Shown here one piece after another: positions 978-20,667 of a DNA stretch of 36,896 nt. The position numbers and the translations under genes are program-made. Positions within the stretch are counted from its first letter, which is position 1. Every line of letters begins with the position of its first letter. This DNA is from a virus. Its lineage: Duplodnaviria; Caudoviricetes. The stretch covers positions 1-36,896 of IMG/VR virus record IMGVR_UViG_3300012352_000720; one strand, given 5' to 3'. The notes beneath the pieces were generated by a model. It did not search any database. It was given only the letters and a program-made list of their open reading frames with translations, and was not told the DNA's origin.

Positions 978-999
978 CAATATATTGTACAATAGTATT

Positions 1000-1632: not shown

Positions 1633-1750
1633 TCTTTGAAAAAAGATTCTCTACTCTACCTTCTGTAATACCAGTCTTTGTTTCATTCTTATAGTAATCA
1701 GATTGAAAGTATGGAGAAGTATAGACCTGCTTGAAATGATCTCTTGTCAT
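1604..1750 (-). CDS. Small hypothetical protein (MTRDHFKQV...)
   Basis: ATG at 1750 lies 9 nt after TGC-TATAAT (extended -10); upstream part of the listed ORF overlaps a structured RNA; 3' end overlaps the convergent oxygenase gene. Confidence 0.5.
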   Translation of the reverse strand: MTRDHFKQVYTSPYFQSDYYKNETKTGITEGRVENLFSKIKKFLVRSR

Positions 1751-1767
1751 AATAACTCTATTATAGC

Positions 1768-1854
1768 AAGAAACCCAACCAGAGGCGGATCCGATTGGGT
1801 TTTGCTGCACATAAGTGCAATGCAGGGAGCAGTATGCGGGATGCTTCAACCTGC
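1768..1854 (-). ncRNA. Candidate small RNA, three hairpins, last one terminator-like
   Basis: Starts 7 nt after TACAAT of a consensus promoter; stems GCAGG/CCTGC enclosing AGCA/TGCT, TGCAC/GTGCA, and a 13-bp stem with G-U pairs favouring the minus strand whose 3' arm runs into TTTCTT. Confidence 0.55.
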
Positions 1855-1860
1855 AAGATT

Positions 1861-1889
1861 ATTGTAGATTATTGTAGACCAAAAGTCAA
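1861..1889 (-). promoter_or_regulatory. Sigma70/SigA-type promoter
   Basis: TTGACT-N17-TACAAT on minus strand. Confidence 0.7.
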
Positions 1890-2083
1890 TCACTTTCTTC
1901 TTCATCAGAAAGATATGAAGGCAGCGGCCCTAGAAGATGTCCCTGCTCGTGATATGAAATCATTTTAGCTGCATCTTCTGCATTAAGTTTTATTCCTATT
2001 AATGTAAGCAGATCATATATTCTATGTAGCATGATGTAGGTTGCCATAGGCAGGTTGTCTTCAAGATTATTTTTATCTTCCAT
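1886..2083 (-). CDS. Hypothetical protein
   Basis: 65-aa ORF overlapping the stop of the upstream methyltransferase, GAGG SD-like site upstream. Confidence 0.7.
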   Translation of the reverse strand: MEDKNNLEDNLPMATYIMLHRIYDLLTLIGIKLNAEDAAKMISYHEQGHLLGPLPSYLSDEEESD

Positions 2084-2714
2084 TTAATTCCCTCTTAAAT
2101 ACTATAGCTTGGCCAGTCGGCAACTCTATTATACTACTTCTATTAAAAAAATCATTCATGGCTTTTCTTGCACCAGGAGTTTTATAGGATCCGTAGTCAT
2201 CGCAAATCAATACTCCGCCAATGCACAGTCTATCCCAAAAATAATTTATTGAGTCTCGAGTTGGCTCATACATATCAACATCAATATGAACGTATGAATA
2301 CTGTAATTCCTCTATCTGACTAAAAACATCTGGAATCCAGCCTTTGTAGATCTTTGCATTGTCTATGCCTTCTAAAGTCTTTAATGAATATTTCATTTCT
2401 ATATCAAGCTTTACTGCATCAAAATAATCTGTATCAAACTCTGTTTTCTTAGATACTCCTTCAAAAGAGTCTATCCCAATAAAATTCTGATCACATTTAT
2501 CCGCTACAAATAACATGCTCATTCCAGCATATACACCGCATTCTGCAAAGTTTAAATTCTTATCTCTTTGCTGGTCTGCCAGTTGTCTTAAAACGTAGAG
2601 TCTTGCGTAAAAAGCAGTATCTATATTGTTGCTTAAATTATAAATAGAGTCAAACTTTTTATATATCTCTACAAACTCATCATCTTCTGACCATCTACTT
2701 AGATATGATTCCAT
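2073..2714 (-). CDS. TylF/MycF-family SAM-dependent O-methyltransferase
   Basis: ECGVYAG, GIDSFEG, KGWIPD, YVHIDVDMYEPT, GGVLICDDYG motifs. Confidence 0.88.
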   Translation of the reverse strand: MESYLSRWSEDDEFVEIYKKFDSIYNLSNNIDTAFYARLYVLRQLADQQRDKNLNFAECGVYAGMSMLFVADKCDQNFIGIDSFEGVSKKTEFDTDYFDAVKLDIEMKYSLKTLEGIDNAKIYKGWIPDVFSQIEELQYSYVHIDVDMYEPTRDSINYFWDRLCIGGVLICDDYGSYKTPGARKAMNDFFNRSSIIELPTGQAIVFKRELNGR

Positions 2715-2832
2715 CTGGTCTTCCTATGTCTTCCCAAAAAATTTCTCTTCCCATATTATCTGTTATGGGGATTGGTCTGGATTCATTCTGTATCTCCTCA
2801 AAGGGAGACCAATTATTTCCGCAAAAGTCCAT
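2695..2832 (-). CDS. Small hypothetical protein (MDFCGNNW...)
   Basis: Shortened version of ORF 2695..2979 that tiles between its neighbours with short overlaps. Confidence 0.45.
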   Translation of the reverse strand: MDFCGNNWSPFEEIQNESRPIPITDNMGREIFWEDIGRPDGIISK

Positions 2833-3028
2833 TGACTGCTGCCTTAATTTTTCCATATGCTGTCTGACCCATAATATTCTTGTAGTCGCAAGAAAGGCAG
2901 TAAAGATATATTTCATCGTTTTGCCCCATATTGCAGAAAAGAGAGCCTTGATCCATTGGACATTCCAACTTGGGTACAAGGCCCTCTTCTGAAAGAGCTA
3001 TATATCTAGATACTATTTGTATCTGCAT
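2813..3028 (-). CDS. Small putative zinc-ribbon protein
   Basis: CPMD...C...CLSC; SD GAGG upstream of ATG; operonic with the lysozyme-like gene. Confidence 0.65.
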   Translation of the reverse strand: MQIQIVSRYIALSEEGLVPKLECPMDQGSLFCNMGQNDEIYLYCLSCDYKNIMGQTAYGKIKAAVNGLLRK

Positions 3029-3036
3029 TATTCCTC

Positions 3037-3600
3037 TTATGCTAGGTTATTCGGGAATAGCTTGAGCCATTCCTTAGCCTTTGGGGTTAAACCCTTCCAG
3101 CTTGACCAATCAGTTCCGCCATTGGTCATGTAGTACGTTATCTCTGCGTTTGTTACTGGGTCGAATAACTCAGTTTTAGTTTTCATGTTAAATTTCTCCT
3201 TAAACAATTCTAGTCTATCTGTTCCCAGACTTCCTATCATGTTAATTTGAAATATTCCATAGGAACTATCTCCAGTTTTTCTGTTTCCGTTATATGCAAG
3301 TGGTCGTCCATTAGATTCCCTCTTTGCGATGGCCCAAGCTTTTTTAAGACCTGTACCTTCAAATCCTACTGCCTTGAAAAGGTCTATAAGATCTTTATCT
3401 GTGAGTTGCTGCTTAGCCGTGTACTTTGCAGTACTTAGTCTATGCAACGTCGCTTGCTTTAATTGGTATTCAGTTTTTACTGCTGGTGCAGGTAATGCAA
3501 TTGCTGACTGCCCCTGGACAGGAAATAGAAATAATGTTATCATTACTATTGCTGTCCAGTGATGTACAACATCGCTTAACTGCTGTTTTATATTCTCCAT
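3037..3600 (-). CDS. Lysozyme-like / lytic transglycosylase (SLT-like) with N-terminal signal or TM segment
   Basis: AIAKRES (catalytic Glu), SYGIFQIN, LFDPVTNA, DWSSW; hydrophobic N-terminus; AAGGAGG 8 nt before ATG 3600. Confidence 0.85.
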   Translation of the reverse strand: MENIKQQLSDVVHHWTAIVMITLFLFPVQGQSAIALPAPAVKTEYQLKQATLHRLSTAKYTAKQQLTDKDLIDLFKAVGFEGTGLKKAWAIAKRESNGRPLAYNGNRKTGDSSYGIFQINMIGSLGTDRLELFKEKFNMKTKTELFDPVTNAEITYYMTNGGTDWSSWKGLTPKAKEWLKLFPNNLA

Positions 3601-3629
3601 TGGCATTTCCTCCTTTAGAGATAACGAAC

Positions 3630-3663
3630 TACAATCATAACATTGATTGTAAGTTACTGTCAA
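3630..3663 (-). promoter_or_regulatory. Promoter with overlapping palindrome
   Basis: TTGACA-N18-TATGAT with TGn extension; inverted repeat TACAATCA-N6-TGATTGTA at 3630-3651. Confidence 0.6.
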
Positions 3664-3683
3664 GTTAGTCAACTAGGATTTTT

Positions 3684-4673
3684 ATGCAAATTTCATTCTC
3701 TACGCTTAGATCAAACTTTAATAAGTCTGTTGGATACGGACATGCTGCAATTAATATAGTAGACGCATTAAATCAGCTAGGCCACGAAGTGCCGTATCAA
3801 GCTCCATCTGCACCAGTACAGTTAAATTTTTCTCAACCAACTCATTTTAAAATGCATAGAAATCAATATCAAATTGGATATACTCCGTGGGAATCAACGG
3901 AGCTTCCAGATGACTGGATGGAATACTTAGAGGCGTGTGACGAAGTGTGGACAACATCTAATTGGTGCAAAGAAGTCTTTGAGTCAAATGGTTTAAAAGA
4001 TGTAAAAGTTTTCCCTCATGGCATAGAAAGTTTCTGGGCTCCAAGAAAAAGAAAGCAAAAAGATGTAATTAGATTTTTACATATTGGAGAGCCAGCACCA
4101 AGAAAAGCTGGACAGATGACGGTAGATGCATTTGCTCATTTGTTTGGTAATGATCAAAGATATCAATTGACAATTAAAGCATATAAGAATAACACCACTA
4201 GAATTTATGACAACTATATAAATAAAGAAATAATAGGTTTACCAGATAGAGTTTACAATAACATAAATATAATCACTGATGACTTTAACGAGCAACAGAT
4301 GCTGGACTTGTATTATGAGCATGATGTGCTTATTTATCCAACATATGGCGAAGGATTTGGTTTTATACCGCTTCAGGCATTAGCAACTGGAATGCCAGTT
4401 ATATCAACATATGATTGGGCAGAGTATAAAGATTTTCTAGGACCCTTAAAGTTAGATTCAGAGCTAATAGACTCTCCATGGCAGCATCCTCACAAAGGAA
4501 AAGTCTTTGAGCCAAACTATCAACACTTACTTGAGCTTATGAGAGACTTTGCATTAAATAGCAAAGCATACTCAGGATACTATTACGCACAGGCACCAAA
4601 GGTTCACGAAAAATATAACTGGTTACAGTTGACCAATAATGCTTTCGATCATATCTTTAAAAAGTTCTCCTAA
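3684..4673 (+). CDS. GT-B fold glycosyltransferase (GT4-like)
   Basis: GYG N-terminal loop, YTPWES, RKA, YPTYGEGFGFIPLQALATGMPVI motif. Confidence 0.9.
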   Translation: MQISFSTLRSNFNKSVGYGHAAINIVDALNQLGHEVPYQAPSAPVQLNFSQPTHFKMHRNQYQIGYTPWESTELPDDWMEYLEACDEVWTTSNWCKEVFESNGLKDVKVFPHGIESFWAPRKRKQKDVIRFLHIGEPAPRKAGQMTVDAFAHLFGNDQRYQLTIKAYKNNTTRIYDNYINKEIIGLPDRVYNNINIITDDFNEQQMLDLYYEHDVLIYPTYGEGFGFIPLQALATGMPVISTYDWAEYKDFLGPLKLDSELIDSPWQHPHKGKVFEPNYQHLLELMRDFALNSKAYSGYYYAQAPKVHEKYNWLQLTNNAFDHIFKKFS

Positions 4674-7875: not shown

Positions 7876-9525
7876 ATGGCAAGAAAATATGTAGTTAGTA
7901 TTGACCTCAACAAGAATGAGTTACTCAATGCTAGAATTCAAAATCTCAGCTCTGCGCCGTCAAGCCCAGTAGCTGGTCAAATTTATTACAACACAGGCAC
8001 AAATGTGCTTTACTTTTACAATGGTTCCGAATGGACACCAGCTTCTGGTTCAACAGAGGTAATTCAAGACGTCATTGGCTCATCTGTATTAGGTGGCACA
8101 GCCTTAACAGCAACATACAATGACTCAGCTGGAACAACAACAATCGATCTTGATAACACAGCAGTAACAGCTGGAGATTATGGGTCATCAACAGCAATTC
8201 CTACATTTACAGTAGACGCACAGGGTAGATTAACTGCAGCTGGCGAACAAACAATTTCAACAGACCTAGGTCTTTCATCAGACTCTGGAACTGGAACAAT
8301 TTCATTGCTATCAGAAACATTAACGGTATCTGGTGGAGAAGGAATTGATACATCAATATCTGGCAATACAGTTACTATTGCTGCAGAAGATGCAACATCA
8401 GCAAATAAGGGTATTGCAAGCTTTGATTCAACAGACTTTACAGTATCAAGCGGAAATGTAACATTAAATTCTGAGCGTGTACAGGATATTGCAGCAGGCC
8501 TATTAAATGGCGGAACTGGAATTGATGTAACATACAATGATGGAGCTGGAACTTTAACAGTAGATATTGACTCAACTGTTGCAACACTATCAGGCTCACA
8601 AACTCTTACAAACAAGACTTTAGGATCTGGAACAGTATTAGATGCACATCTAGATGCAGATAATAATAAGGTAACAAATCTCGCAGATCCAGTTGATGCA
8701 CAAGATGCAGCGAATAAGCGTTATGTAGATTCAGCGGTAGCTGGATTAAACTGGAAGCAGTCAGTAAATCTTTTAGCAACATCAAATATTGCAGATTTAA
8801 CAGATATTACAACAGTAACTATTGATAGCCATCCAGTAGATGTAGATCAAATTGGATATAGAGTACTTCTTACTGGACAGACAACTGATTCAGAAAATGG
8901 TATTTATCAAGTAGTTGCAGCAACTGGAAGCAATATAAGCTTTACTAGAACAACAGATGCAGATGCATACACAGAGCTTGTTGGAGCTTCAGTATTCGTT
9001 GTTGAAGGAACTGTTTATGGGTCAACTTCATGGGTTCAATCAAATCACTACCTAACTGACTTTACTGGTCAAGAGTGGGTACAGTTCTCTGGACAAGGAA
9101 CATATGTTGGATCAAACTCAATTGAGCTTGATGGAAACATAATTAATGCTACTGTAAATACAGCAGCGGGTCTAGATATAGACAGCAGTGGAATTAAGGT
9201 AGTCCTTGGAGAAGGTCTTGTATTCTCTAATGGAGCTGCGACAATTAATGCTGGAACTGGTTTTGATATAGCTACTGGCTACCTTAACTTCTCTGAAGGT
9301 TATGGAGTTAGAAAGTATTCAGTTTCAATTGGAGACGGATCAGCAACATCATATACAGTAACACATAGCTTAAATACTAGAGATGTTACTGCTCGTGTAT
9401 ATGAAACAGCATCTCCATATGCAGAGGTAGAGGTTGATGTTGAGCATGCAACAGCAGATACCCTAACAATTAAATTCTCATCTGCTCCTACATCAAATCA
9501 ATATCGAGTGGTAGTAGTAGGATAA
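7876..9525 (+). CDS. Tail fibre-like structural protein
   Basis: Thr/Ser/Gly-rich; [31 protein letters not shown] repeats, [17 protein letters not shown] motifs; strong SD AAGGAG. Confidence 0.75.
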
Positions 9526-9528
9526 TAG

Positions 9529-9966
9529 ATGTCTAAGAAATTCTTAACGCCTATAGTACCGCCAGCCTTGGAGTCAGATCCATCTGGTGGTACTGAGGGT
9601 GCTATTTATTTCAATTCATCAACAAATGCTCTAAAGTTTTATAATGGCACTAATTGGGTTGAGATTTCACAAGCTGGTGGAGCAACAGCTGCCAGCTCAA
9701 TTAGAACATTAAATGCAGCACCATCATCTCCAGCAGAAGGAGATGTATATTTTGATACCGTTGAAAATGTAATTAAAGCATATAACGGAGTTAGCTGGTC
9801 AGATGTCGGAGGTCCTAAAGCGTTATTGGACCACGTACATAATTACGACGGAACTGTTGGGTATATAAATTATGGTACATTTGTAGATACCTCCATTGTA
9901 TCCTATGACGCAGGAAATGCGTACTCAACACAATTTAATGATATACTTGACGGAGGTAACGCATAA
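9529..9966 (+). CDS. Tail fibre-associated protein with two internal repeats
   Basis: Two copies of P...EG.(I/V)YF......K.YNG..W; ends ILDGGNA. Confidence 0.65.
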   Translation: MSKKFLTPIVPPALESDPSGGTEGAIYFNSSTNALKFYNGTNWVEISQAGGATAASSIRTLNAAPSSPAEGDVYFDTVENVIKAYNGVSWSDVGGPKALLDHVHNYDGTVGYINYGTFVDTSIVSYDAGNAYSTQFNDILDGGNA

Positions 9967-11501
9967 TGGCAATTAGAATACAACTTAGAAGAGATACAGC
10001 CGCAAATTGGACATCGGCAAACCCAGTCCTGCTCGCAGGCGAATTAGGTATTGAAACAGATACCCTTAAGATTAAAATTGGTAATGGTAATAACTGGAAT
10101 GATATTACTAACTACTCAAATATAACACCAAGCAACCTAGACTCAACGTTAGAAGATTATCTTTTAGTCTCAGATCGTGGTGCTGCAAATGGTGTTGCTT
10201 CACTTAATTCAAGCACAAAAGTTCCAAATACACAGATTGACAGCACCTACTTTGCAACAGTTACAAGTGTCACAAGCGCAGTTAATACACTAGATGAAAC
10301 AATAACTGGCGAACTTGAAACTATTAATACTACATTAGGCGGAATTGCAACAGATATATCAGACATAAATACTGCAGCTGGAACATTGGCAAGCACAGTA
10401 TCTGGACATACAACAGATATATCAGATTTAGATTCAGCAAAAGCTCCTAAAGCTAGCCCAACATTTACTGGAGATGTAGTTCTTCCATCAACAACCACAA
10501 TTGGAGATGTTTCATCAACTGAGCTTTCTTATGTAAATGGAGTTACTTCTGGAATCCAGTCTCAAATAGATTCAAAGGCTTCCTCTACAGCTCTTTCAAG
10601 TCACGCTAGTGATACAACAGATATTCACGGAATTGCTGATACATCTGCATTAGCGACAAAAACATATGCAGACGATGCAGTTTCAACACATAATTTAGAT
10701 ACAACTTCTGTTCATGGAATTGACGATACAGCAGAGCTAGCTACTAAGACATATGCAAATAATGCAGTGTCTACACACAGTTCAGATACAACTTCAGTTC
10801 ACGGAATTGCTGATACATCCGTTCTTCTTACAACTGCTGGAGGAACTGTAGATGCTTTAACAATTACTGGAAACTTAACTGTTAATGGAACAACAACTAC
10901 AGTCGATACTGCAAACCTTGAAGTTACAGACTCACTTATTTACCTTGCGTCAGAGCAGTTTGATACAGATGCCCTAGACATCGGTATTTTCGGTGCATAT
11001 GGTGATGTGCAGACTGGACATTTTCACACAGGTGTTGTTCGTGATGCATCAGATGGAAAATGGAAATTAGTTTCAAATGCACCAGAGCCAGTAGATAATG
11101 CAATTGATTTTTCTGGAGTAACATACGATACCATAAAGGTAGGCGGAGTCGAATTTTCTGATGGAGCTCAGACAAAAGAAGGTGTTCCATCAAGAACTCC
11201 TATTATTAATAAAACATCATCATATACACTTTCAAATCTAACTGAAAGAGATTCTATGATCGAGGTCGCTTCTTCATCTGGAACTACAATTACAATTCCA
11301 ACAAATTCAGCGGTAGCCTTCCCAATCGGAGCCTCAATTGATATTTGCCAGACATCTACTGGCCAGGTAACAATTGCTGGAGATACTGGAGTAACAGTAA
11401 ATTCAACCCCAGGACTAAAGCTTAGAACCCAGTGGTCAACAGCTACATTATTTAAGCGTGATACAAATACATGGCTTGTTTATGGCGATCTGACAGCATA
11501 A
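9966..11501 (+). CDS. Tail fibre protein (Mtd-N-like N-terminus, 29-aa His repeats, C-terminal 'GDL' domain)
   Basis: IQLRRDTAANWTSANPVLLAGELGIETDT (Mtd-N/hyaluronidase-N-like); NGVASL; C-terminal TPGLKLRTQWS...WLVYGDLTA. Confidence 0.75.
   Translation: MAIRIQLRRDTAANWTSANPVLLAGELGIETDTLKIKIGNGNNWNDITNYSNITPSNLDSTLEDYLLVSDRGAANGVASLNSSTKVPNTQIDSTYFATVTSVTSAVNTLDETITGELETINTTLGGIATDISDINTAAGTLASTVSGHTTDISDLDSAKAPKASPTFTGDVVLPSTTTIGDVSSTELSYVNGVTSGIQSQIDSKASSTALSSHASDTTDIHGIADTSALATKTYADDAVSTHNLDTTSVHGIDDTAELATKTYANNAVSTHSSDTTSVHGIADTSVLLTTAGGTVDALTITGNLTVNGTTTTVDTANLEVTDSLIYLASEQFDTDALDIGIFGAYGDVQTGHFHTGVVRDASDGKWKLVSNAPEPVDNAIDFSGVTYDTIKVGGVEFSDGAQTKEGVPSRTPIINKTSSYTLSNLTERDSMIEVASSSGTTITIPTNSAVAFPIGASIDICQTSTGQVTIAGDTGVTVNSTPGLKLRTQWSTATLFKRDTNTWLVYGDLTA
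10602..10830 (+). repeat. Three 87-bp (29-aa) coding repeats H..DTT.(V/I)HGI.DT..L
   Basis: His codons at 10602, 10689, 10776, spaced exactly 87 nt. Confidence 0.85.
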
Positions 11502-11540
11502 ATAAATATAGTATAATAAAAATAGCAGATAGGGAAAAAT

Positions 11541-12809
11541 ATGAGCAAAAGAGCAGGTAGACACTCGTCTCAATCCAATGACTTTTTAGAGCCATCGGAA
11601 GTAACTGACTTATCTGCTTCAGATGTTGGAACAAATAGACCATATTTAGGGACAGCAAATACCACATCAGCTGCTTCAGCAGCTGGAACTGGCGCAGCTG
11701 CATCAATAACATGGAATTTGCCATCAACTTCACCTGCTGCTACTTCATATACAATTACAACTACCCCATCAACATATACAGTTCAAACTGGATCAAGTTC
11801 AACATCATATACTTTTCAAGGTCTAGCTTCAAATACATCATATACATTTACAGTAGTGGCAACTAATGCTTCTGGTTCTTCAGACGCAGTAACATCTTCA
11901 TCTGTTACACTAACAACAGTTCCAGCTATCATGTCAGCCCCCACAGCTACATCACCAAATGCTAATCAAGATGTAGTCTCTTGGACAGCTCCAGCAACTG
12001 GCGGAAAAGCAATTAGCGGATATACAATTAAATCTTCTGACGGTCCTACTTCTTCAGCAGATGCTTCAGCTACATCAAGAACAATTGATGAGACAGCTGG
12101 AACTTCGCAGACATATCAAATATTTGCAACAAACGGAAATGGAAATGCAGCATATTCAAGTAGCTCAAATAGCATTACTACAACATCGCCATTCTTTCCA
12201 CCATTCTTCCCACCGTACTTTCCATACTTTCCATACTTCCCACCGTATTTCCCACCATACTTCCCATACTTCCCATACTTCCCATACTTCCCACCTTCAT
12301 TCCCATACTTCCCACCTTCATTCGGGCCGTACTTCCCAGGATTTAAGGGTCCAAAGTGTATTGACGGAGAAACTAGAATCTTAACAGCTGATCGTGGATA
12401 TGTTCCAGCTAAGCTTATTGAGGTTGGAGATAAGGTTCTTACAATTGATCCAGCTGGTTTACCTGGAGAGAATATCTTAGATACACCAGTTAGCTTAGAT
12501 GTTAATTTAATCGAGCTCGAGGTAGTGTCAGTAGAAAAGGATATTAAGAACGTATTATCATTTAATAATACAGAAATATTCTACTCTGGAGCTCAGCCAA
12601 TTATTTTAAATGTAGACGATAAGTTTGTAAATGTCTTTGCTAGTGACATTGTTATAGGAGATAAGATTATTACTATAAACGTAGAAGATAAAACTTTATC
12701 TCACATGGTAGTAGAATCAATTCAGATTGATGAAAATAGAGATGTTTATGACATCAGAACTACTCCTTATCAGTGGTACATCGCAGAAAATAATATCGTT
12801 ATCTCTTAA
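11541..12809 (+). CDS. Two FN3 domains + Pro/Tyr/Phe repeat + C-terminal Hint domain protein
   Basis: FN3 motifs (ITW..P, GLASNTSYTFTVVATN; VSWTAPATGG..ISGY); PPFFPPYFPYF repeats; Hint from Cys273 (CIDGETRILT...IEVGDKV...VYDI). Confidence 0.82.
   Translation: MSKRAGRHSSQSNDFLEPSEVTDLSASDVGTNRPYLGTANTTSAASAAGTGAAASITWNLPSTSPAATSYTITTTPSTYTVQTGSSSTSYTFQGLASNTSYTFTVVATNASGSSDAVTSSSVTLTTVPAIMSAPTATSPNANQDVVSWTAPATGGKAISGYTIKSSDGPTSSADASATSRTIDETAGTSQTYQIFATNGNGNAAYSSSSNSITTTSPFFPPFFPPYFPYFPYFPPYFPPYFPYFPYFPYFPPSFPYFPPSFGPYFPGFKGPKCIDGETRILTADRGYVPAKLIEVGDKVLTIDPAGLPGENILDTPVSLDVNLIELEVVSVEKDIKNVLSFNNTEIFYSGAQPIILNVDDKFVNVFASDIVIGDKIITINVEDKTLSHMVVESIQIDENRDVYDIRTTPYQWYIAENNIVIS
12189..12338 (+). 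repeat. Coding low-complexity tandem repeat (PYF/PPYF)
   Basis: Includes 4 perfect CCATACTTC copies at 12255-12290. Confidence 0.9.
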
Positions 12810-12883
12810 TTTTATCAAGTAATAACGCTTGCTACTATTGTATCTTATAACTGCAAATGTTATAATAGTTGTCGGAGGCTATT

Positions 12884-13630
12884 ATGCAAAATAATCAAGA
12901 AGACTGGTTTGAAAAAGATAGAACAGAGTCCACATCTGTTAGAATGCCAGATAAAGATTTTAATGGTATTAGGGTTTCTAACCCAGGATTTGGCTTGAAT
13001 GTATATCACCATGCTTTTTCAAAAGATCAAATAGACAGATATATTTCTGTATTAAATCGCAGCCTAGGTAATAATGGTCCATTTGTATGGAATGAAGCTA
13101 AGGTTACAAATGATAATGTGCCAATTAAAAAGGCGAGGGACTGCGTAGACTTTAAGATGAACTTTAAGTCGCTTGGTCCAAAAAATCAATTAAATGCTGA
13201 GCTTCATGAAATTTATGAAGAGATATTCGACGGATTGAGAAAGTGTGTAGATGATTATGCACGATACTGGGGAATTAATGTAAACTTCTATGAGATATTT
13301 AACTTTGTTAAGTATGAAGGAGAAGGAAAGCACTTTAGGATCCATGCTGATGATGGACCTATGTATAAGTGTGCAGTTTCTGCAGTTATTTATTTAAACG
13401 ATGATTATGAAGGTGGAGAGATATACTTCCCAAGACTAGACAAGACAACTGTTAAGCCAGGATACGGAGATATAGCAGTATTCCCTTCAAACTATGCATA
13501 CGAACATGCATCGCTTCCAATTAAATCTGGAACAAAGTATTGTGTAGTCGTTATGATGGATATTAACGACTTAGCTCACAAAGATAACGCATATGGCGTT
13601 AGAATAAATCAGAACGGACAGGTATCGTAA
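12884..13630 (+). CDS. 2OG-Fe(II) oxygenase, prolyl-4-hydroxylase-like
   Basis: HAD...YLNDDYEGGE...HAS...KY; GGAGG before ATG 12884, TGT-TATAAT upstream. Confidence 0.9.
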   Translation: MQNNQEDWFEKDRTESTSVRMPDKDFNGIRVSNPGFGLNVYHHAFSKDQIDRYISVLNRSLGNNGPFVWNEAKVTNDNVPIKKARDCVDFKMNFKSLGPKNQLNAELHEIYEEIFDGLRKCVDDYARYWGINVNFYEIFNFVKYEGEGKHFRIHADDGPMYKCAVSAVIYLNDDYEGGEIYFPRLDKTTVKPGYGDIAVFPSNYAYEHASLPIKSGTKYCVVVMMDINDLAHKDNAYGVRINQNGQVS

Positions 13631-14313
13631 TGGATATTAATACTGAAAATAATAATGATGTCAATGTTACATGGAGTAGCAAAGAAGAAGTTGCTCCAGG
13701 TATCTGGGTTTATCATGACGTACTTAAGAAGGATTTAGATATTATCAATAGGATAGAGAATGTCCTTGGCGATACAGCAAATCAATATAAGTGGGAAGAG
13801 GCTTTTGTTGGATATAGACAAAGAATGCCAGAGTATAGAGATTGCGTAGACTTTAAATATAAGAAGACTGATATCGCTCAAGATCCATCAGAAGCATCAC
13901 TTAAGCTTCAAGACATTTGGCAAGACTGCTACGATGCCCAGTATGCAGCAGTACAAGATTATTCAAAGATGTATCGCATCAACAATTTAAGATATTGGGA
14001 AGCTTTTAACTTTGTTAGATATGGCGAAGGCCAACACTTCATGGAGCATCATGACCATGGGTACTCTTATAACTGTACTCTTTCATTGGTATCTTATCTA
14101 AATGACGACTATGAAGGTGGAGAAATTTTCTTCAGACTTCAGGGCCTAGACTACAAGCCAAAGGCTGGAGATACAGTATTATTCCCATCTAACTTTATGT
14201 ATCCGCATACAGCAAAGGTTGTAACAAAGGGAATTAAGTATTCATTAGTAACAATGCTTGACTATAGTGACAAGTATCACAAGCCAGAGTTTTATAGAGA
14301 AACTGGATCATAA
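13630..14313 (+). CDS. 2OG-Fe(II) oxygenase, prolyl-4-hydroxylase-like
   Basis: HHD...YLNDDYEGGE...HTA...KY; TAATG coupling. Confidence 0.9.
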   Translation: MDINTENNNDVNVTWSSKEEVAPGIWVYHDVLKKDLDIINRIENVLGDTANQYKWEEAFVGYRQRMPEYRDCVDFKYKKTDIAQDPSEASLKLQDIWQDCYDAQYAAVQDYSKMYRINNLRYWEAFNFVRYGEGQHFMEHHDHGYSYNCTLSLVSYLNDDYEGGEIFFRLQGLDYKPKAGDTVLFPSNFMYPHTAKVVTKGIKYSLVTMLDYSDKYHKPEFYRETGS

Positions 14314-15026
14314 TGTCGATACTTAAGGTATACAAAAGACATGACGATGCCTTAATTATAAATTCATTACCAGTTCAAAGAGACTGGATGGATGAGACTC
14401 CAAATAAGCATGCGTATAGATGCTATCCAGTTACAACTGCAAACACAGTTGGATGGACTTTATCTGCTCCATACGACATAAGCTTTACATGGGATGGCAT
14501 TAATGATACTAGTGGGGATCATATAGAGGTAATAGAAGGATCTGAGAATACTTATACTGGTAGAGGCCAGTCAAGCCTAAGCATTAATAGTGGTGTTGTT
14601 ATTACATCAGAAAAAGATATTAGTGTTTTAACAATTACACCTCAAAATTATTTTTATAAAGACTTTGAAGTAATATCCTCTCTGATCAGCACTTCTTTTT
14701 TAGACAAAGAATTCCCATTAGCGATAAAGGCTTTAACTCCAAATAAGGTTATTACAATTAAAGCTGGAGAGCCAATAGCTACAATAATACCAGTATCATT
14801 AACAAGGTTAAAAGATGAGTCAGTAGAGATACTAGATTTTATTGAGAGCGATGAATATAATGATAGAATAAGATCTTATGGTGATGCAGCTCAAGCTATT
14901 AATAAAACTGGAGAATGGACAGACTGGTATAGAGATGCTGTTAATGAAAAAGGTGAAAAGGTTGGAGAGCACGAAGTAAAAAACTTAAAGCTTAAAGTTA
15001 TAAATAATAGTAGATGGAAGAACTAA
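14313..15026 (+). CDS. DUF6065-like protein
   Basis: RDWMDET..HAYRCYPV..AN..GW...P.D..F.WDG and I.AGEPIA.IIP motifs. Confidence 0.65.
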   Translation: MSILKVYKRHDDALIINSLPVQRDWMDETPNKHAYRCYPVTTANTVGWTLSAPYDISFTWDGINDTSGDHIEVIEGSENTYTGRGQSSLSINSGVVITSEKDISVLTITPQNYFYKDFEVISSLISTSFLDKEFPLAIKALTPNKVITIKAGEPIATIIPVSLTRLKDESVEILDFIESDEYNDRIRSYGDAAQAINKTGEWTDWYRDAVNEKGEKVGEHEVKNLKLKVINNSRWKN

Positions 15027-15755
15027 TTGAATAAGATAGAGTTTATTGCTAATAGAGGCTTTTTAAGAAAAGACATAAACAGGTCTCCAATGTCGATCAT
15101 AAAGAATATGCCAAACTGGTTCAGACAAGCAGACAGATTTGCTAAAAACCCAAATACTGGAGAATTTTGGGTTGGTCCAGATAAAGGAAAGATTCCAACT
15201 TGGAAAGCTTGCCCAGCAATTTTTGATATAATGACAACTGGATATTCATATGTAACCCCATGTGACATTGAATTTTTCATTAATGATCATGGCATAATAG
15301 ATGTCAAAATACAGGATAAGTTCTTTGGCAATTTCTGCTCTCCTAGGCCTGCTATGCCACAGTTTGAGCATCCAGAGGGTTTCTATAGGGATCACTTTGC
15401 TTGGTTCCCAGAATGGGCTGTGAGGGTTCCTGAGGGGTATAGTGTGCTGTACTCTAGCCCATTTAATAGATATGACCTTCCATTTATGACCGTTTCTGGA
15501 ATTATTGATAATGACAAGGTTAATCTTCCAGGCTCAATGCCATTTTTTATTAGAAAGGGATGGACTGGGGTTATTCCAGCTGGAACACCTTATGCACAGC
15601 TTATTCCTTTTAAGAGAGAGGACTGGCAATCAGACTATGTGTATGAGTCTGATGATGTTATATTAGCTAAAAATATTGAAAACTCAAGTAAATATAGAGT
15701 TCCAGATGGAGGAGTCTATAAAAATAGCGTATGGTCAAAAAGAACATATGATTAG
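15027..15755 (+). CDS. DUF6065-like protein, second subtype
   Basis: P.WF, TWKACPAIFD.MTTGY...PCD, GIID.D, IPAGTPYAQLIPFKRE; TTG start abutting the previous stop. Confidence 0.55.
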   Translation: MNKIEFIANRGFLRKDINRSPMSIIKNMPNWFRQADRFAKNPNTGEFWVGPDKGKIPTWKACPAIFDIMTTGYSYVTPCDIEFFINDHGIIDVKIQDKFFGNFCSPRPAMPQFEHPEGFYRDHFAWFPEWAVRVPEGYSVLYSSPFNRYDLPFMTVSGIIDNDKVNLPGSMPFFIRKGWTGVIPAGTPYAQLIPFKREDWQSDYVYESDDVILAKNIENSSKYRVPDGGVYKNSVWSKRTYD

Positions 15756-15774
15756 AAAATGGTAAAATATATAT

Positions 15775-16452
15775 ATGGACAATAACTACTCAAATAATCA
15801 TTCAAATGATAGATTTTCTATAACTCCGTCAGGTTTCTTCGGTAATTCTGCTAGTAATATTCAGGCAAGAGAAGGATTCATGACAAGAGAAGAACACCAG
15901 TTTTTGCTAAATGCTGCAAAGAATATAACTCATTGGGATGTCACAGAGACTCACTATAATGAAGACGGAACGGTAATTTATGATTCAGAATACTGGAAAG
16001 ACCGTGTTGCAACTGGAAGATCTTTGGACCAGGAAGATCCAGAAATCAGTAGAGCTATATTAAGCCTTGTAGAAAGATTAAAAATAGAAGTAGATAATTT
16101 TTTCAATGTAGATGCTATCCCTACAAGTCCAGCAATTGTTAGATGGTTCCCTGGACAGTTGCAGATGCCACATGCAGATAAAGAATTACATGAAGGAGAC
16201 AATGCTGGAAAGCCTAATGATTTTCCATGGTACGACATTGCTGGACTATTTTATTTAAATGAAGACTATGAGGGTGGAGAACTATATTTCCCAAATCAAA
16301 ATATACAGTTTAAGCCAAAGCAAGGTAGCGCATACTTCTTCCCAGGAGACATGAATTACATTCATGGGGTTACAAAAATTGAATCTGGAATAAGATATGT
16401 TATTCCATTTTTCTGGACTATATTAAAGCATACTGGAGATAAGCAGCCATGA
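15775..16452 (+). CDS. 2OG-Fe(II) oxygenase, prolyl-4-hydroxylase-like
   Basis: HAD...YLNEDYEGGE...HGV...RY. Confidence 0.9.
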   Translation: MDNNYSNNHSNDRFSITPSGFFGNSASNIQAREGFMTREEHQFLLNAAKNITHWDVTETHYNEDGTVIYDSEYWKDRVATGRSLDQEDPEISRAILSLVERLKIEVDNFFNVDAIPTSPAIVRWFPGQLQMPHADKELHEGDNAGKPNDFPWYDIAGLFYLNEDYEGGELYFPNQNIQFKPKQGSAYFFPGDMNYIHGVTKIESGIRYVIPFFWTILKHTGDKQP

Positions 16453-17177
16453 TAATTGACAAGATTGATAAGTCAGCATTTATTTATTATAAAGATGAAC
16501 CTAATGATAAGGGTGTTTTAAATGTACCAGAAAATAAAATTGTCGAGATACCTAACTTTGTGACTGCAGAAGTTGCACCAAAGATGATTAAGTTTTTTGA
16601 AGAATGTGATGTTGATTGGGGAGACATTGCTTTTTACGGTTCCTCTGGAAAGGGTATTAAGGCTGACCCAGCATACCTAGAAAGCTTTGGACTTACTGGA
16701 ACATTTTTTTCAGACATTAAGGATAAATTTCAGGAAGCAGTAACAATAGTTTTTGATAGAGAAGTTCGTGCTAATACCTCTCATGCACAAAAGTGGGATG
16801 TTGGAGGCTTTGCAAGCGTTCATTCAGATAACTCAAATAACGATGGAGATCCTAACGCATTTGAGATAAATAAGTATGTTGCTATACTTTATTTAAATGA
16901 TGATTATGAAGGCGGAAATTTGTATTTTCCAGACCATGATATATCATTTAAGCCAAATGCTTATTCTTTATATACCTTTCCTGGCGGAGTGGAAAATCTT
17001 CACGGCGTTTCAGAAATAACTAAGGGCACAAGATACACTATGGTTTCTTTCTGGGATTTTGCAGATCTTGAATATGATGAAGCTACTATTGAAAGATGGA
17101 AAGAAGAAGAGCGTCAAGTAAGAATTGAGCAGGCAAAGCAAAAGGCAGAGTGGGAAAAGGGCAACAAGTATGCTTAG
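16449..17177 (+). CDS. 2OG-Fe(II) oxygenase, prolyl-4-hydroxylase-like
   Basis: HSD...YLNDDYEGG...HGV...RY; ATGA overlap. Confidence 0.9.
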   Translation: MIIDKIDKSAFIYYKDEPNDKGVLNVPENKIVEIPNFVTAEVAPKMIKFFEECDVDWGDIAFYGSSGKGIKADPAYLESFGLTGTFFSDIKDKFQEAVTIVFDREVRANTSHAQKWDVGGFASVHSDNSNNDGDPNAFEINKYVAILYLNDDYEGGNLYFPDHDISFKPNAYSLYTFPGGVENLHGVSEITKGTRYTMVSFWDFADLEYDEATIERWKEEERQVRIEQAKQKAEWEKGNKYA

Positions 17178-17763
17178 CTATGAAGCCCCACACGAGAAGA
17201 TACATGTTTATTATGACATGATTAGACCATCAATCATAGAAGATATAGAGTTACTTGATATTTTATCAGATCCGAACTCAACTATTCCAAAATGGAAAAC
17301 ATGGTATCCTTCTGGAGCAGAAGGACAAGAGTCACTTGCATTCGGGTATCAAAAAAGAATGACTGATCACTTGAGCCCAGACCGAAAAGATGATTCCTAT
17401 GCTGAAATATATTGGGAAATATTTAATGCAATAGTTTCTGCTTCTGAAGATTATGCATCTAGACACGAAATTGAGATTGGTAGATTAGCCCCATTATCAA
17501 TAAGTAAGTATAAGGCTGGAGCTTCAATGGGGAAGCATACTGACTCTAATGGCTCAGAAGGTCCACAGACAGTATCAGTGGTTTGCTACTTAAATGATAA
17601 TTATGAGGGTGGTCAGATTAGATTTGAAGATCAGGGTATAGAGATAAAGCCAAGAGCTGGCAGCATAGTAATATTCCCATCTAAGCCTCCATTTTTTCAT
17701 GAATCTATGCCAGTAATTTCTGGCTGGAAGTATATTTCTCCTGGATTTTGGAATATCCTATAA
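17170..17763 (+). CDS. 2OG-Fe(II) oxygenase, prolyl-4-hydroxylase-like
   Basis: HTD...YLNDNYEGG...HES...KY; ATG 17170 overlaps the previous stop. Confidence 0.88.
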   Translation: MLSYEAPHEKIHVYYDMIRPSIIEDIELLDILSDPNSTIPKWKTWYPSGAEGQESLAFGYQKRMTDHLSPDRKDDSYAEIYWEIFNAIVSASEDYASRHEIEIGRLAPLSISKYKAGASMGKHTDSNGSEGPQTVSVVCYLNDNYEGGQIRFEDQGIEIKPRAGSIVIFPSKPPFFHESMPVISGWKYISPGFWNIL

Positions 17764-17789
17764 CTATTCAGATGGTATAATTTATTATT

Positions 17790-18893
17790 ATGGCATCAAA
17801 TTTTCCTACATCTCTAGACGCTTTGTCTAACCCATCAGCTAGTACGCTTTTAAATCAGCCAGATAAAGCTCACAGTCAACAACATGCAAATTTAAATGAT
17901 GCCGTAGAGTCTCTTCAGGCACGAGTTGGCATAGAAGGCTCCTCAAACGTAAACTCTTTAGAGTATAGATTAAATGCAGTAGAAACAGCATCTGGATCAA
18001 ATACAATTGTTCAGGATACATCTACAGGATGGTTTACAGATAACCCAATATTGGCAGCAAATCAAGTTGGTATAGAGACAGATACTTTAAAGATTAAATT
18101 TGGTACTGGAGACAACTGGAATGACATCCAATATACAGCAGTAACCCCACCAGAATTAGAGAGCAGCTTGTCAGACTACGTTCTAGTCACAGATAGAGGT
18201 TCTGTTAACGGAGTAGCTTCATTAGACTCTTCAGGTAAAATACCAGACACAGAAATCCCATCGGGCATTACAAGAGACTCAGAGCTTTCAGCACATAATT
18301 CAGCAACTACTTCAGTTCATGGAATTACAAATACAGCGGAACTAGCTACAAAGTCTTATGCCGATACAGCTGCATCTAATGCAGTATCTGCATTGATTGA
18401 TTCAGCTCCAACAGCGCTTAATACTTTAAATGAATTAGCAGCAGCAATAAATGACGATGCAAGCTATGCTGCAACAATAACAACATCATTAGGGCTAAAG
18501 CAGGATAAGGTATCTGGAGTAACTGATACGGAGATAGGATACCTTGACGGAGTAACATCTGCAATACAAACACAGATTGATTCTAAATCTACCTCATTAA
18601 TTCAGTTTAATCAACAATCATCTTCTTATACACTTCAGCTCTCTGACAAAGATAAGATTGTAGAAATGTCAGGCGGGGGAACAATCACAATTCCAGCAGA
18701 AGCAACTTTAAACTTACCTGTAGGATTCTCTGTTGAAATTCTTCAAACTGGTTCATCACAAGTTACAATTGCTGGAAGTGGTTTTACTCCAAATGCTACA
18801 CCAGGATTAAAATTAAGAGCACAATGGAGCAGCGCCTCATTGGTTAAAAGAGGCTCTGACTTATGGATTGTTAGCGGCGATTTGAGCGCATAA
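17790..18893 (+). CDS. Tail fibre protein, paralogue of 9966..11501
   Basis: NPILAANQVGIETDTLKIKFG, NGVASL, one H...TTSVHGI repeat, C-terminal TPGLKLRAQWS...WIVSGDLSA. Confidence 0.75.
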   Translation: MASNFPTSLDALSNPSASTLLNQPDKAHSQQHANLNDAVESLQARVGIEGSSNVNSLEYRLNAVETASGSNTIVQDTSTGWFTDNPILAANQVGIETDTLKIKFGTGDNWNDIQYTAVTPPELESSLSDYVLVTDRGSVNGVASLDSSGKIPDTEIPSGITRDSELSAHNSATTSVHGITNTAELATKSYADTAASNAVSALIDSAPTALNTLNELAAAINDDASYAATITTSLGLKQDKVSGVTDTEIGYLDGVTSAIQTQIDSKSTSLIQFNQQSSSYTLQLSDKDKIVEMSGGGTITIPAEATLNLPVGFSVEILQTGSSQVTIAGSGFTPNATPGLKLRAQWSSASLVKRGSDLWIVSGDLSA

Positions 18894-20062
18894 TGGCCAG
18901 ACGTCTTAGAATTGCTAGAGGTTCTGGTGTTAGAAAGGTCACGGTTCCAGATCTTTCTGGGTTGACAAAATCAGAGTCAGAATCCATTCTTTCTTCTTTA
19001 GGACTTAATTATTCTTCAAGCTCTTCTAATACAGAAACATCTTCGCTTTCTAACAAGATATCTAGTCAGTCTATTTCAAGTGGGTCCACTGTTTTAATTG
19101 GATCTGAAGTATCTTTTGTATATTATAATTATGTTGCGCCACCATACTTCCCATATTTTGCACCAGCACCTCCTTACTTCCCAACATTTATTCCAGCTCC
19201 ATCATTTACCACCCCAGGATATTTATCTTCAAGAACATCAAGCTCACTTACTTGGTCATGGGCTGGAGAAAATTATCAATCATGGAAGCTTTACAGCGGT
19301 GGAACTGGAGAAATATTTGCATCTGGTGATGGTCAGGCAACCTCTGCAACTAGAAGTGGTCTTAACCCAAGTCAGTCATATACAGCAACCATTAGATTAT
19401 ATTCTTCAACTGGATTAAGTGGAGCTTCTACTTCTGATGCAGTTTCTGGAACAACCGAAGCTGCTGCACCAACACCACCAGACTTCACACCAGCACCACC
19501 AGACTTCACACCAGCACCACCAGACTTCACGCCAGCACCACCAGACTTCACGCCAGCACCACCAGACTTCACGCCAGTACCACCTTACTTTAAGGGCGGA
19601 AAGGGACCTGGATGTATTTATGCGGATACACGAGTTCTTACTAACGCAGGCTATGTCTATGCAAAGAATATTTCTGTAGGAGACAAACTTGCAACCATAG
19701 ATCCTGAAGGGCTGCTAGGAAATACAATTATAAATTCAAGTACAGATATTGATGTTAAATTAATTAATGTTGATGTTGTAAGCGTTGAAAGCAGCATTAA
19801 GGATGTTGTAGGATTTAATAATAGCCTAGCATTATATTCTGCAATACAGCCTATTATTATTGATCGTGACGGCAAGTTTACATATGTAAAGGCTGGAGAT
19901 ATTTCCATAGGAGATACAGTAATAGAGATTGATGCTGAGACAAAGGCTATATCAAATATAGTTGTAGAGTCAATTCAGACTCAAAGCTCAGTAGAAGTTT
20001 ATGATATCAGAACTACACCATATCAGTGGTATATAGTTGAAAATAGCATAGTGGTATCTTAA
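18893..20062 (+). CDS. PASTA + Pro-rich + FN3 + PPDFTPA repeat + C-terminal Hint domain protein
   Basis: VTVPDLSGLT...L...GL...SQS...G..V..GSEV (PASTA); SSSLTWSW...GLNPSQSYT (FN3); Hint from Cys241 (CIYADTRVLT...VYDI). Confidence 0.82.
   Translation: MARRLRIARGSGVRKVTVPDLSGLTKSESESILSSLGLNYSSSSSNTETSSLSNKISSQSISSGSTVLIGSEVSFVYYNYVAPPYFPYFAPAPPYFPTFIPAPSFTTPGYLSSRTSSSLTWSWAGENYQSWKLYSGGTGEIFASGDGQATSATRSGLNPSQSYTATIRLYSSTGLSGASTSDAVSGTTEAAAPTPPDFTPAPPDFTPAPPDFTPAPPDFTPAPPDFTPVPPYFKGGKGPGCIYADTRVLTNAGYVYAKNISVGDKLATIDPEGLLGNTIINSSTDIDVKLINVDVVSVESSIKDVVGFNNSLALYSAIQPIIIDRDGKFTYVKAGDISIGDTVIEIDAETKAISNIVVESIQTQSSVEVYDIRTTPYQWYIVENSIVVS
19475..19579 (+). repeat. Five tandem 21-bp coding repeats (PPDFTPA)
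   Basis: CCACCAGACTTCAC(A/G)CCAG(C/T)A x5. Confidence 0.95.
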
Positions 20063-20667
20063 TGGAATTAGTTTATGAAGAGCTTGCTCCTGGGATAATA
20101 GTTTTTAAAAATGTATTTCCAGAAGAGATACATTTAACATTAATACCAGAAATAGAAGAGGCAGCAGAGAGCGGACTTGCTCCATGGCACGAGGCTTCTG
20201 TAAGAGATAATGGTGCTAATAAGGTTAATAAGGCAGTTAGAGATAATAAGTCAACTTCCTTTCCATATTCATATAGCGCTGTAAATGCAGGTAGCCCCAG
20301 GGAGAACCTATTTGAAAAAATGTCCAGCCTATTCTGTGAGGGCTTAGATCCAATAGAAAAAAAGTATATGTCAATGTTTGGAATATCTTTTTATGATCAT
20401 GACTCATATACTGTCTTAAAGTATGGCATAGATCAAAAGTTTATCAATCACATAGACGATCACACTAATTATCCAAGAAGAATATCTATGGTCTATTATA
20501 TAAATGATGACTATGAGGGTGGAGAAATTGTTTTTCCAAGATTTAATGTTTCTTATAAGCCAAAGGCAAATGAGGTTATATTCTTTCCATCGTCATACAC
20601 TTATAACCACTCGGTTTTACCAGTAAAAAGCGGACTTAGATACGCAGTAGTATCTTGGATACACTGA
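20062..20667 (+). CDS. 2OG-Fe(II) oxygenase, prolyl-4-hydroxylase-like
   Basis: HID...YINDDYEGGE...HSV...RY; EELAPGI N-terminus as in 13630; TAATG coupling to the Hint gene. Confidence 0.9.
   Translation: MELVYEELAPGIIVFKNVFPEEIHLTLIPEIEEAAESGLAPWHEASVRDNGANKVNKAVRDNKSTSFPYSYSAVNAGSPRENLFEKMSSLFCEGLDPIEKKYMSMFGISFYDHDSYTVLKYGIDQKFINHIDDHTNYPRRISMVYYINDDYEGGEIVFPRFNVSYKPKANEVIFFPSSYTYNHSVLPVKSGLRYAVVSWIH

What the first reader, a model, noticed from the sequence alone, without database searches (positions are those of the whole stretch)
9966..20667. Candidate new system: Pro-rich/Hint 'substrate' proteins with dedicated prolyl-hydroxylase-like enzymes in the tail-fibre locus
Seen: two genes (11541, 18893) each encode surface-binding-type domains (FN3, PASTA), Pro-aromatic tandem repeats, a basic Gly linker (PYFPGFKGPK|C and PPYFKGGKGPG|C) and a terminal Hint domain. 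Each is immediately followed by P4H-like 2OG-Fe(II) dioxygenase genes: five plus two DUF6065-like genes after the first, and one TAATG-coupled gene after the second. Each is preceded by a paralogous fibre gene. Established: P4Hs hydroxylate polyproline-II repeats (collagen, extensin, chlorovirus PBCV-1 P4H); Hint domains form a thioester at Cys1 and can release or ligate the N-terminal part (Hedgehog, bacterial intein-like domains). Inference: a phage pathway that hydroxylates, possibly decorates further, and autoprocesses extensin-like virion appendages, with RiPP-like logic in which the Hint domain acts as a removable follower or enzyme-recruiting domain. I know of no description of this combination.
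Basis: partly seen in the sequence, partly recalled or inferred. Interest (0 to 1): 0.9.

Follow-up and report, generated by a model that had tools for sequence, protein, structure and literature searches.

The report
Phage fibre repeats with matched hydroxylases
An uncultured phage follows each of two fibre genes with a protein ending in a proline-rich repeat and an intein-like (Hint) domain, then iron oxygenase genes whose type changes with the repeat type in related phages, so the enzymes likely hydroxylate these repeats, which would give a target for a common class of unexplained phage enzymes; no chemistry has been shown.

Summary
In detail: fibre → FN3-FN3-(Pro/Phe/Tyr)-Hint → five oxygenases plus two DUF6065, then fibre → PASTA-(PPDFTPA)5-Hint → one oxygenase. 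In related viral contigs the enzyme set tracks the repeat. Pro-rich aromatic tracts carry the window's main cassette (102 of 105 genes). Low-Pro tracts never do (0 of 26); 21 of them carry a different oxygenase-like family. Relatives of gene 20062 lie behind Pro-rich tracts in 61 of 62 loci (59 Thr/Ala/Ser/Val-Pro type), and relatives of 15775 behind aromatic ones in 50 of 52. Best reading (0.6): the oxygenases modify the repeat of a fibre-associated adhesin. Linkage as a co-inherited block is the main rival. Nine literature searches found no description of the combination. The scan found this system before on at least 8 other genomes.

The parts
9966..11501 (+). Fibre gene 1: Mtd_N start, C-terminal ~110-aa tip domain
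   Evidence: Pfam Mtd_N 8e-16; PHROG tail fibre/minor tail hits; tip domain ~48% identical to Gordonia phage minor tail proteins
11541..12809 (+). Repeat protein 1: FN3-FN3, Pro/Phe/Tyr tract, linker, Hint
12189..12338 (+). Pro/Phe/Tyr tract (residues 217-266), candidate substrate of the main cassette
   Evidence: sequence; shuffle test; co-occurrence
12357..12806 (+). Hint domain 1: Cys1, Ser B:7, Gln at B:10, Asp F:4, no His-Asn, no C-extein
12869..13630 (+). 2OG-Fe(II) oxygenase, HxD...H, Lys-type (start likely ATG 12884)
13630..14313 (+). 2OG-Fe(II) oxygenase, Lys-type; most widespread cassette gene (121 loci)
14313..15026 (+). DUF6065 protein A; lacks the DxD motif seen in protein B
15027..15755 (+). 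DUF6065-like protein B; predicted dUTPase-like fold, keeps a DxD motif
   Evidence: model pLDDT 93; Foldseek and VIA Z 9.7, rmsd 3.5 A over 120 residues to S. mutans dUTPase
15775..16452 (+). 2OG-Fe(II) oxygenase, Arg-type; relatives follow aromatic Pro tracts
16449..17177 (+). 2OG-Fe(II) oxygenase, Arg-type
17125..17763 (+). 2OG-Fe(II) oxygenase, Lys-type (start likely ATG 17170)
17790..18893 (+). Fibre gene 2, paralogue of 9966 with the same tip domain
18893..20062 (+). Repeat protein 2: PASTA, short Pro/Tyr/Phe tract, FN3-like, (PPDFTPA)5, linker, Hint
19475..19579 (+). Five PPDFTP(A/V) units (residues 195-229), candidate substrate of 20062
   Evidence: sequence
19613..20059 (+). Hint domain 2, 56% identical to Hint 1, same altered motifs
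20062..20667 (+). 2OG-Fe(II) oxygenase of a separate subfamily tied to Thr/Ala-Pro repeats; closest solved relative is a bacterial prolyl 4-hydroxylase

Best explanation
The phage encodes two fibre-plus-partner modules whose partner proteins end in a proline-rich repeat and a Hint domain, each followed by 2-oxoglutarate/Fe(II) oxygenase genes that likely hydroxylate that repeat, and the modified partner likely serves as a binding protein on the fibre. Shown: the anatomy, the intact HxD...H iron sites, and the match between repeat type and enzyme type across relatives (Pro/Phe/Tyr tract with the main cassette; Phe-Gly-Phe-Ser/Thr-Pro tract with another oxygenase-like family; Thr/Ala-Pro tract with the 20062 subfamily). 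Inferred: (1) the repeat is the substrate, with 20062 the best candidate for a true Pro hydroxylase and the other five acting at other positions or residues (Pro, Phe, Tyr); (2) the protein is a virion appendage, because it follows the fibre gene and the same FN3 scaffold carries a Gly-rich domain in other phages; (3) the Hint is an optional cap that may cleave before Cys1 (about even odds given Gln at B:10), cannot splice, and is not what recruits the enzymes; (4) the DUF6065 pair is a dUTPase-fold accessory, possibly handling a nucleotide co-substrate for a further tailoring step.
For: Repeat-first: of 131 FN3 genes with enough downstream DNA (156 found), 102 of 105 Pro-rich ones carry at least 4 of 6 core genes and 0 of 26 low-Pro ones do; non-redundant 56 of 57 against 0 of 21. 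21 of the 26 carry another family with GWFN...H(D/E)H...HPH...RITIAYD motifs. Enzyme-first: 20062 relatives have a Pro-rich tract upstream in 61 of 62 loci with at least 900 bp upstream (59 aliphatic type) and downstream in 0 of 80; 15775 relatives in 50 of 52 loci with at least 5 kb upstream, all aromatic. Natural swaps at the second module: PPDFTPA with a 20062-type gene (window, L161); PPYDNT with different oxygenases (L003); pure Pro/Phe/Tyr with no oxygenase (L099, L102, L127, L129, L132, L133, L136); a Cys-rich partner with none (L002). The repeat class changes 5 times on the FN3 tree (at least 3 forced; shuffled mean 18.8), and low-Pro tips lack the core cassette. Closest solved relatives are prolyl hydroxylases: 3ITQ 1e-9, EGLN1, PBCV-1 5C5T. 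FN3 + Gly_rich_2 viral proteins are structural neighbours and occur in a related fibre locus without these oxygenases.
Against: Repeat and enzymes are adjacent, so block inheritance alone gives co-occurrence; loci are the best 80 hits of each scan and are kin. The P4H substrate Tyr (His-3) is Phe, Gln, Ala or Met in all six families and the matching Arg is only in 20062. Five enzymes are more than one tract of three residue types obviously needs. The dUTPase fold points to nucleotide chemistry. Aliphatic Pro repeats without a neighbouring 20062-type gene exist: L153, L246, L342; 55 of 57 (Pro-Thr)n-pattern loci lay outside this family and had no oxygenase downstream. Three Pro-rich genes have only 2-3 core genes (L023, L029, L067). 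A distant homologue of 13630 stands alone among replication genes in cyanophage syn9. For PBCV-1, no hydroxyproline was detected in purified virion proteins (PMC7019647, citing unpublished work).
Confidence: 0.6

Rival explanations
1. The cassette makes or modifies a nucleotide, nucleotide-sugar or small metabolite, and only travels with the repeat gene because both sit in one exchangeable block.
For: DUF6065 has a dUTPase fold with a kept DxD motif; P4H substrate residues are missing in five of six enzymes; relatives add dehydrogenase, epimerase, methyltransferase and radical SAM genes; Iyer et al. 2010 read cyanophage tandem dioxygenases as metabolite pathways (PMC2938197).
Against: Linkage does not explain three distinct repeat-enzyme pairings at two positions, nor the change of enzyme when only the second repeat changes (window against L003 against L099-type loci).
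Confidence: 0.2
2. The oxygenases modify other proteins (the fibres, other virion proteins or host proteins), and the repeat is an unmodified hydrophobic stalk or assembly element.
For: Bacterial-type P4H and EGLN relatives act on folded proteins (established knowledge, recalled); homologues occur without repeats in cyanophages; PBCV-1 precedent of no virion hydroxyproline.
Against: The fibre tip domain is highly conserved across loci with different cassettes (mean column identity 77%), whereas the repeat is what changes with the enzymes.
Confidence: 0.12
3. A true RiPP: the repeat is a core peptide that is modified, cut out by the Hint plus proteolysis and released as a small product.
For: Precursor-plus-tailoring-enzyme layout; linker and Hint are often near-identical between the two paralogues of one genome (19 of 20 loci above the median).
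Against: No leader, protease, exporter or recognition element was found in the cassette; large FN3/PASTA domains precede the tract; Hint is absent in about half of the genes; cleavage at Cys1 would leave the tract attached to the FN3 part.
Confidence: 0.06

Closest known systems
Chlorovirus PBCV-1 prolyl 4-hydroxylase (PDB 5C5T) and the virus's Pro-containing peptides (PMC7019647, passages)
   Same: [quoted passage not shown]
   Different: One enzyme, eukaryotic virus, role unknown, no hydroxyproline detected in virions. Here six enzymes in subfamilies that follow the repeat type, adjacent to the repeat gene, with a Hint cap and without the conserved substrate Tyr.
Predicted bacterial hydroxylase/sulfotransferase operons with collagen-like or tail-collar substrates, and the Syn9 tandem dioxygenase array (Iyer et al. 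2010, PMC2938197, passages)
   Same: Co-encoded repetitive protein proposed as substrate of linked dioxygenases; tandem oxygenase arrays in phages; sulfotransferase and Asp/Asn beta-hydroxylase genes also occur in some relatives here.
   Different: Those substrates are Gly-rich or tail-collar proteins in bacteria; the phage arrays were read as metabolite pathways; the passages read mention no Pro-aromatic tract, Hint or DUF6065.
Bacterial intein-like (BIL) domains, PDB 2LWY; Hedgehog Hint
   Same: Hint fold by profile (E 3e-11); Cys1 in 116 of 116 aligned domains; Ser/Thr at B:7.
   Different: Gln replaces His B:10 in both window proteins and in 82 of 145 family domains; no terminal His-Asn or C-extein in the window's subgroup; F:4 is variable in the family.
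Salmonella phage S16 gp38 adhesin with Gly-rich polyproline-II bundle (PMC13243192, passages; gp37-gp38 fibre-tip arrangement recalled)
   Same: Fibre gene followed by a partner with a low-complexity, PPII-prone domain; FN3 scaffolds related to 11541 carry Gly-rich domains.
   Different: No sequence relation to gp38 was tested; here the slot holds a Pro-aromatic polymer with modifying enzymes and an optional Hint.
Trimeric dUTPase / dCTP deaminase superfamily
   Same: 15027 model aligns at Z 9.7, rmsd 3.5 A, 120 residues, 13% identity.
   Different: About 240 aa with insertions; no sequence-level hit to any PDB chain; paralogue 14313 lacks the DxD motif.

Membership tests
2OG-Fe(II) oxygenase superfamily (six genes) | HxD...H facial triad and basic 2OG-binding residue | tested here: met
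   H, D, H invariant in the alignment; Lys in 12869, 13630, 17125 and Arg in 15775, 16449, 20062; PF13640 above cut-off for all six
Prolyl 4-hydroxylase | Closest characterised relatives are prolyl hydroxylases | tested here: met
   3ITQ at 1e-9 for the 20062 family and 4e-4 for 13630; only these two of six were searched
Prolyl 4-hydroxylase | Conserved substrate-contacting Tyr three residues before the first iron His (Cr-P4H Tyr140) | tested here: not met
   Conservation stated in PMC9676403; position is Phe (13630, 12869, 20062 families), Gln, Ala or Met
Prolyl 4-hydroxylase | Arg before the YLND strand, aligned to the Arg of 3ITQ (substrate role recalled) | tested here: inconclusive
   Arg in 51 of 52 parsed 20062-family proteins; not at that position in the other five families
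Prolyl 4-hydroxylase | Forms trans-4-hydroxyproline in peptides | not testable with these tools
   needs biochemistry
Hint superfamily | Hint fold with N-terminal Cys/Ser nucleophile | tested here: met
   profile hits 2LWY and inteins; Cys1 116 of 116 aligned, 29 of 145 gapped at that column; no structure model was made
Class 1 intein / splicing BIL | His B:10 | tested here: not met
Class 1 intein / splicing BIL | C-terminal His-Asn and a C-extein | tested here: not met
   proteins end IVIS and IVVS at the stop codon
Hint superfamily | N-terminal autocleavage activity | not testable with these tools
   needs expression
dUTPase | Trimeric dUTPase fold | tested here: met
   15027 model; trimer not modelled; the 14313 model failed (pLDDT 39)
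dUTPase | Five catalytic motifs and dUTP hydrolysis | tested here: inconclusive
   DxD in 80 of 81 15027-family proteins and a downstream Gln resemble motifs III and IV (motif labels recalled); no sequence hit to dUTPases; activity untested
RiPP | Short precursor with leader/follower required for enzyme recognition | tested here: not met
   precursors are 389-422 aa multidomain proteins; 51 of 54 Hint-less genes keep the cassette; no NCBIfam RiPP family hit
gp38-type fibre-tip adhesin | Binds the fibre tip in the virion | tested here: inconclusive
   gene order only; needs virion data

The most novel reading that the evidence does not exclude
These phages run a modular post-translational code for their adhesins: interchangeable repeat polymers (Pro/Phe/Tyr, Phe-Gly-Phe-Ser-Pro, Thr/Ala-Pro), each with its own oxygenase set, give extensin-like hydroxylated and further decorated appendages; a His-less Hint forms a thioester that releases or ligates the finished chain, and the dUTPase-fold DUF6065 pair is a new nucleotide-dependent tailoring enzyme.
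Probability: 0.2. Interest if true: 0.9.

Novelty: new variant of a known kind. Interest (0 to 1): 0.66.

Why it matters
2OG-Fe(II) oxygenases and 'prolyl 4-hydroxylases' are common in aquatic phages and are usually listed as auxiliary metabolic or stress genes without a substrate (for example PMC11706807, passages). This window holds two repeat types and two enzyme types side by side, so one genome supplies a cognate-versus-swapped test with small soluble enzymes and synthetic peptides. If true, it would show hydroxyproline-type chemistry on phage appendages, reassign a large enzyme class from host metabolism to virion maturation, give a first role to DUF6065 and provide new peptide hydroxylases.

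Tried and rejected
Complex prediction of three fibre-tip domains with residues 1-130 of 11541: no verdict (score 0.18, mark 0.32). Structure of 14313 from a 7-sequence alignment failed (pLDDT 39) and was not searched. Locus searches with the Hint alignment and the DUF6065 alignment found no usable pattern; single proteins or other alignments were used. An all-against-all BLAST timed out and was replaced by cassette genes only. The word-index search gave 1 homologue; the HMMER search gave 56. No match for 11541 among 50,697 annotated phage records. A single Hint sequence gave nothing significant in PDB; the DUF6065 profile gave no PDB sequence hit. A repeat-first DNA scan for (Pro-Thr)n covered 3 of 64 parts and gave only 2 loci with a tip or PASTA gene among 57 usable of 127, one with and one without the 20062-type gene: inconclusive. 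The prokaryote-genome scan gave 3 MAG contigs that look like phage DNA. Rejected: Hint as enzyme-recruiting follower; splicing (no His-Asn or C-extein); 'each Hint gene has a dedicated enzyme' as a general rule (seven second genes are followed directly by the LamG gene). The tree is the quick IQ-TREE run, the careful one did not finish. Longbotham et al. 2015 was not held.
Full report
Setting. The window is one 36.9-kb contig of a tailed phage: class II ribonucleotide reductase, portal, protease, major capsid and tape measure genes. The capsid protein is 59-63% identical to those of Streptomyces phages such as Sham, Faust and Gilson, so an actinobacterial host is likely (inference). The finding lies between the reductase and the portal gene.

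Observation. The tracts are far above shuffles. The Hint call was weak in Pfam but is firm by family profile (2LWY, E 3e-11).

Relatives. Three scans gave 160 loci (3, the best 80 of 429, the best 80 of 215, with overlap). Profiles built from the window's genes show a fixed order: fibre-tip gene, FN3-FN3 repeat gene, enzyme cassette, sometimes a second fibre and partner, then the LamG gene. Clustering of cassette genes gave two exclusive sets. Of 156 FN3 genes behind a tip gene, 131 had enough downstream DNA and a tract of at least 15 residues; 25 were dropped. Of 105 with at least 25% Pro in the tract, 102 carry at least four of the six core families (12869, 13630, 14313, 15027, 15775, 16449); L023, L029 and L067 have two or three. 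Of 26 low-Pro genes none does, and 21 carry one to four copies of another family with oxygenase-like motifs but no Pfam hit. Of the other five, two (L034, L089) are misclassified upstream copies with Pro-rich tracts whose cassette follows a second copy, and three have only a DUF6065-like gene. The non-redundant set gives 56 of 57 against 0 of 21. The counts include the window and repeated fetches of some contigs. On a quick tree of the FN3 part the repeat class changes five times (at least three forced, shuffled mean 18.8), so the sample holds few independent events, and repeat and cassette could move as one block.

Enzyme-first tests. The three relatives of 20062 in the first set each follow a Thr-Pro repeat protein. 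A scan with their alignment (best 80 of 376) showed a Pro-rich tract within 3 kb upstream in 61 of 62 loci with at least 900 bp upstream, 59 of them of the Thr/Ala/Ser/Val-Pro type, and in 0 of 80 downstream (37 of 37 non-redundant). A scan with 15775 (best 80 of 595) showed a Pro-rich tract upstream in 50 of 52 loci with at least 5 kb, all aromatic; the two misses start inside the repeat gene or its Hint. The window carries both types in the expected places. In the reverse direction, of 39 second-module or Hint genes with usable downstream DNA (44 listed), 2 of 3 with an aliphatic Pro tract have a 20062-type gene and 0 of 36 without one do. Counter-examples are L153, L246 and the distant virus L342, and (Pro-Thr)n-pattern loci of unrelated viruses mostly have no oxygenase nearby (55 of 57; the pattern can also match the non-coding strand). 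L003 has a PPYDNT repeat and different oxygenases. Seven second genes with pure Pro/Phe/Tyr tracts have no enzyme behind them, which fits shared use of the main cassette (inference).

The Hint. It is optional: among Pro-rich genes 51 of 51 with and 51 of 54 without it keep the cassette. Of 34 non-redundant Hint-less genes, 11 end in a Cys-rich tail, 5 have Cys in the repeat and 18 simply end. Cys1 is kept in 116 of 116 domains aligned at that column, but B:10 is Gln in 82, His in 45 and Glu in 14 of 145. [quoted passage not shown] The window's domains keep Cys1, Ser B:7 and Asp F:4 and lack His-Asn, so splicing is excluded on motif grounds and N-terminal cleavage is plausible but uncertain. 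Within a genome the two Hints are more alike than the median cross-genome pair in 19 of 20 loci, often with near-identical linkers; gene conversion or a shared processing signal would both explain that.

The enzymes. All six keep HxD...H and a basic 2OG-binding residue. The closest solved relatives of the two searched are prolyl hydroxylases. The substrate Tyr conserved in P4Hs (PMC9676403) is absent in all six, and only 20062 has the Arg aligned to that of 3ITQ. They resemble P4Hs but are not shown members. 15027 folds confidently (pLDDT 93) and matches dUTPases; it keeps a DxD motif that 14313 lacks. Its role is unexplained and is the best support for the nucleotide rival.

Location. Virion location is inferred from gene order, from the tip domain's likeness to Gordonia minor tail proteins, and from FN3 scaffolds that carry a Gly-rich domain instead of the tract (Pfam Gly_rich_2 scores under cut-off).

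Literature. Searches found no description of the combination; DUF6065 has no hit. The library lacks most subscription papers. Read as passages: PMC2938197, PMC9676403, PMC7019647, PMC11706807, PMC13243192; passages and section 4 of PMC4031507. Others were seen as listings only. The supplement of PMC2938197 was not read and may list related neighbourhoods. Eriksson 1999 and Longbotham 2015 were seen only as references. Earlier scan notes report the same system on at least 8 other genomes; I re-tested their central claim here. One note on a (Pro-Thr)n module found its oxygenase not consistently linked; my reverse tests agree that such repeats do not always have the enzyme next to them.

Verdict. 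A real, conserved module, a new variant of a known kind (viral prolyl hydroxylase with viral Pro repeats; predicted hydroxylase-substrate operons). Most likely the oxygenases modify the adjacent repeat (0.6). The RiPP-follower role of the Hint is not supported. Interest 0.66.

Noticed in passing
window 970-4673: A seventh 2OG oxygenase (970-1632), a TylF-like methyltransferase (2073-2714, minus), an SLT-type lysozyme (3037-3672, minus) and a GT4 glycosyltransferase (3684-4673) lie upstream; the glycosyltransferase is also in L002.
   Followed up: no
window 7876-9966: Further fibre- or decoration-like genes; 7876 hits both 'head decoration' phrog_2647 and a T7 tail-fibre N-terminal domain.
   Followed up: no
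L096:11203-12563, L063:11415-12068, L044:14145-14798: Oxygenase-like family without a Pfam hit (weak phrog_2696) that replaces the main cassette behind Phe-Gly-Phe-Ser/Thr-Pro tracts.
   Followed up: partly
L166:5760-11063, L207:5754-10970: 20062-type genes are preceded by a small Cys-rich DUF6171-like gene and followed by an NAD-dependent epimerase and unassigned genes, one with a faint NodZ hit: a possible glycosylation step after hydroxylation.
   Followed up: partly
L320:529-4383: Contig binned as Sediminibacterium carries the repeat-Hint gene and cassette with inserted TylF-like methyltransferase and radical SAM/SPASM genes; probably phage DNA in a MAG.
   Followed up: partly
L304:489-1731, L070:11329-12604: Sulfotransferase and Asp/Asn beta-hydroxylase genes inserted directly behind the Hint gene.
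   Followed up: partly
L081:2434-7506: FN3 scaffolds with Gly-rich domains in a related fibre locus, with one DUF6065-like gene and no P4H-like oxygenase in the held DNA.
   Followed up: partly
L098, L132, L133, L143: The ten residues before Cys1 are identical in the two Hint paralogues of one genome.
   Followed up: partly
L002:16908-17792, L004:11487-12572: The second fibre is followed by a Cys-rich partner with no Pro tract or Hint; in L002 the LamG-type gene follows with no oxygenase.
   Followed up: partly
P0005, P0007, P0011, P0023, P0025, P0027: The repeat-linker-Hint end is also fused to 700-970-aa proteins with other N-terminal regions, so it is a portable C-terminal module.
   Followed up: no
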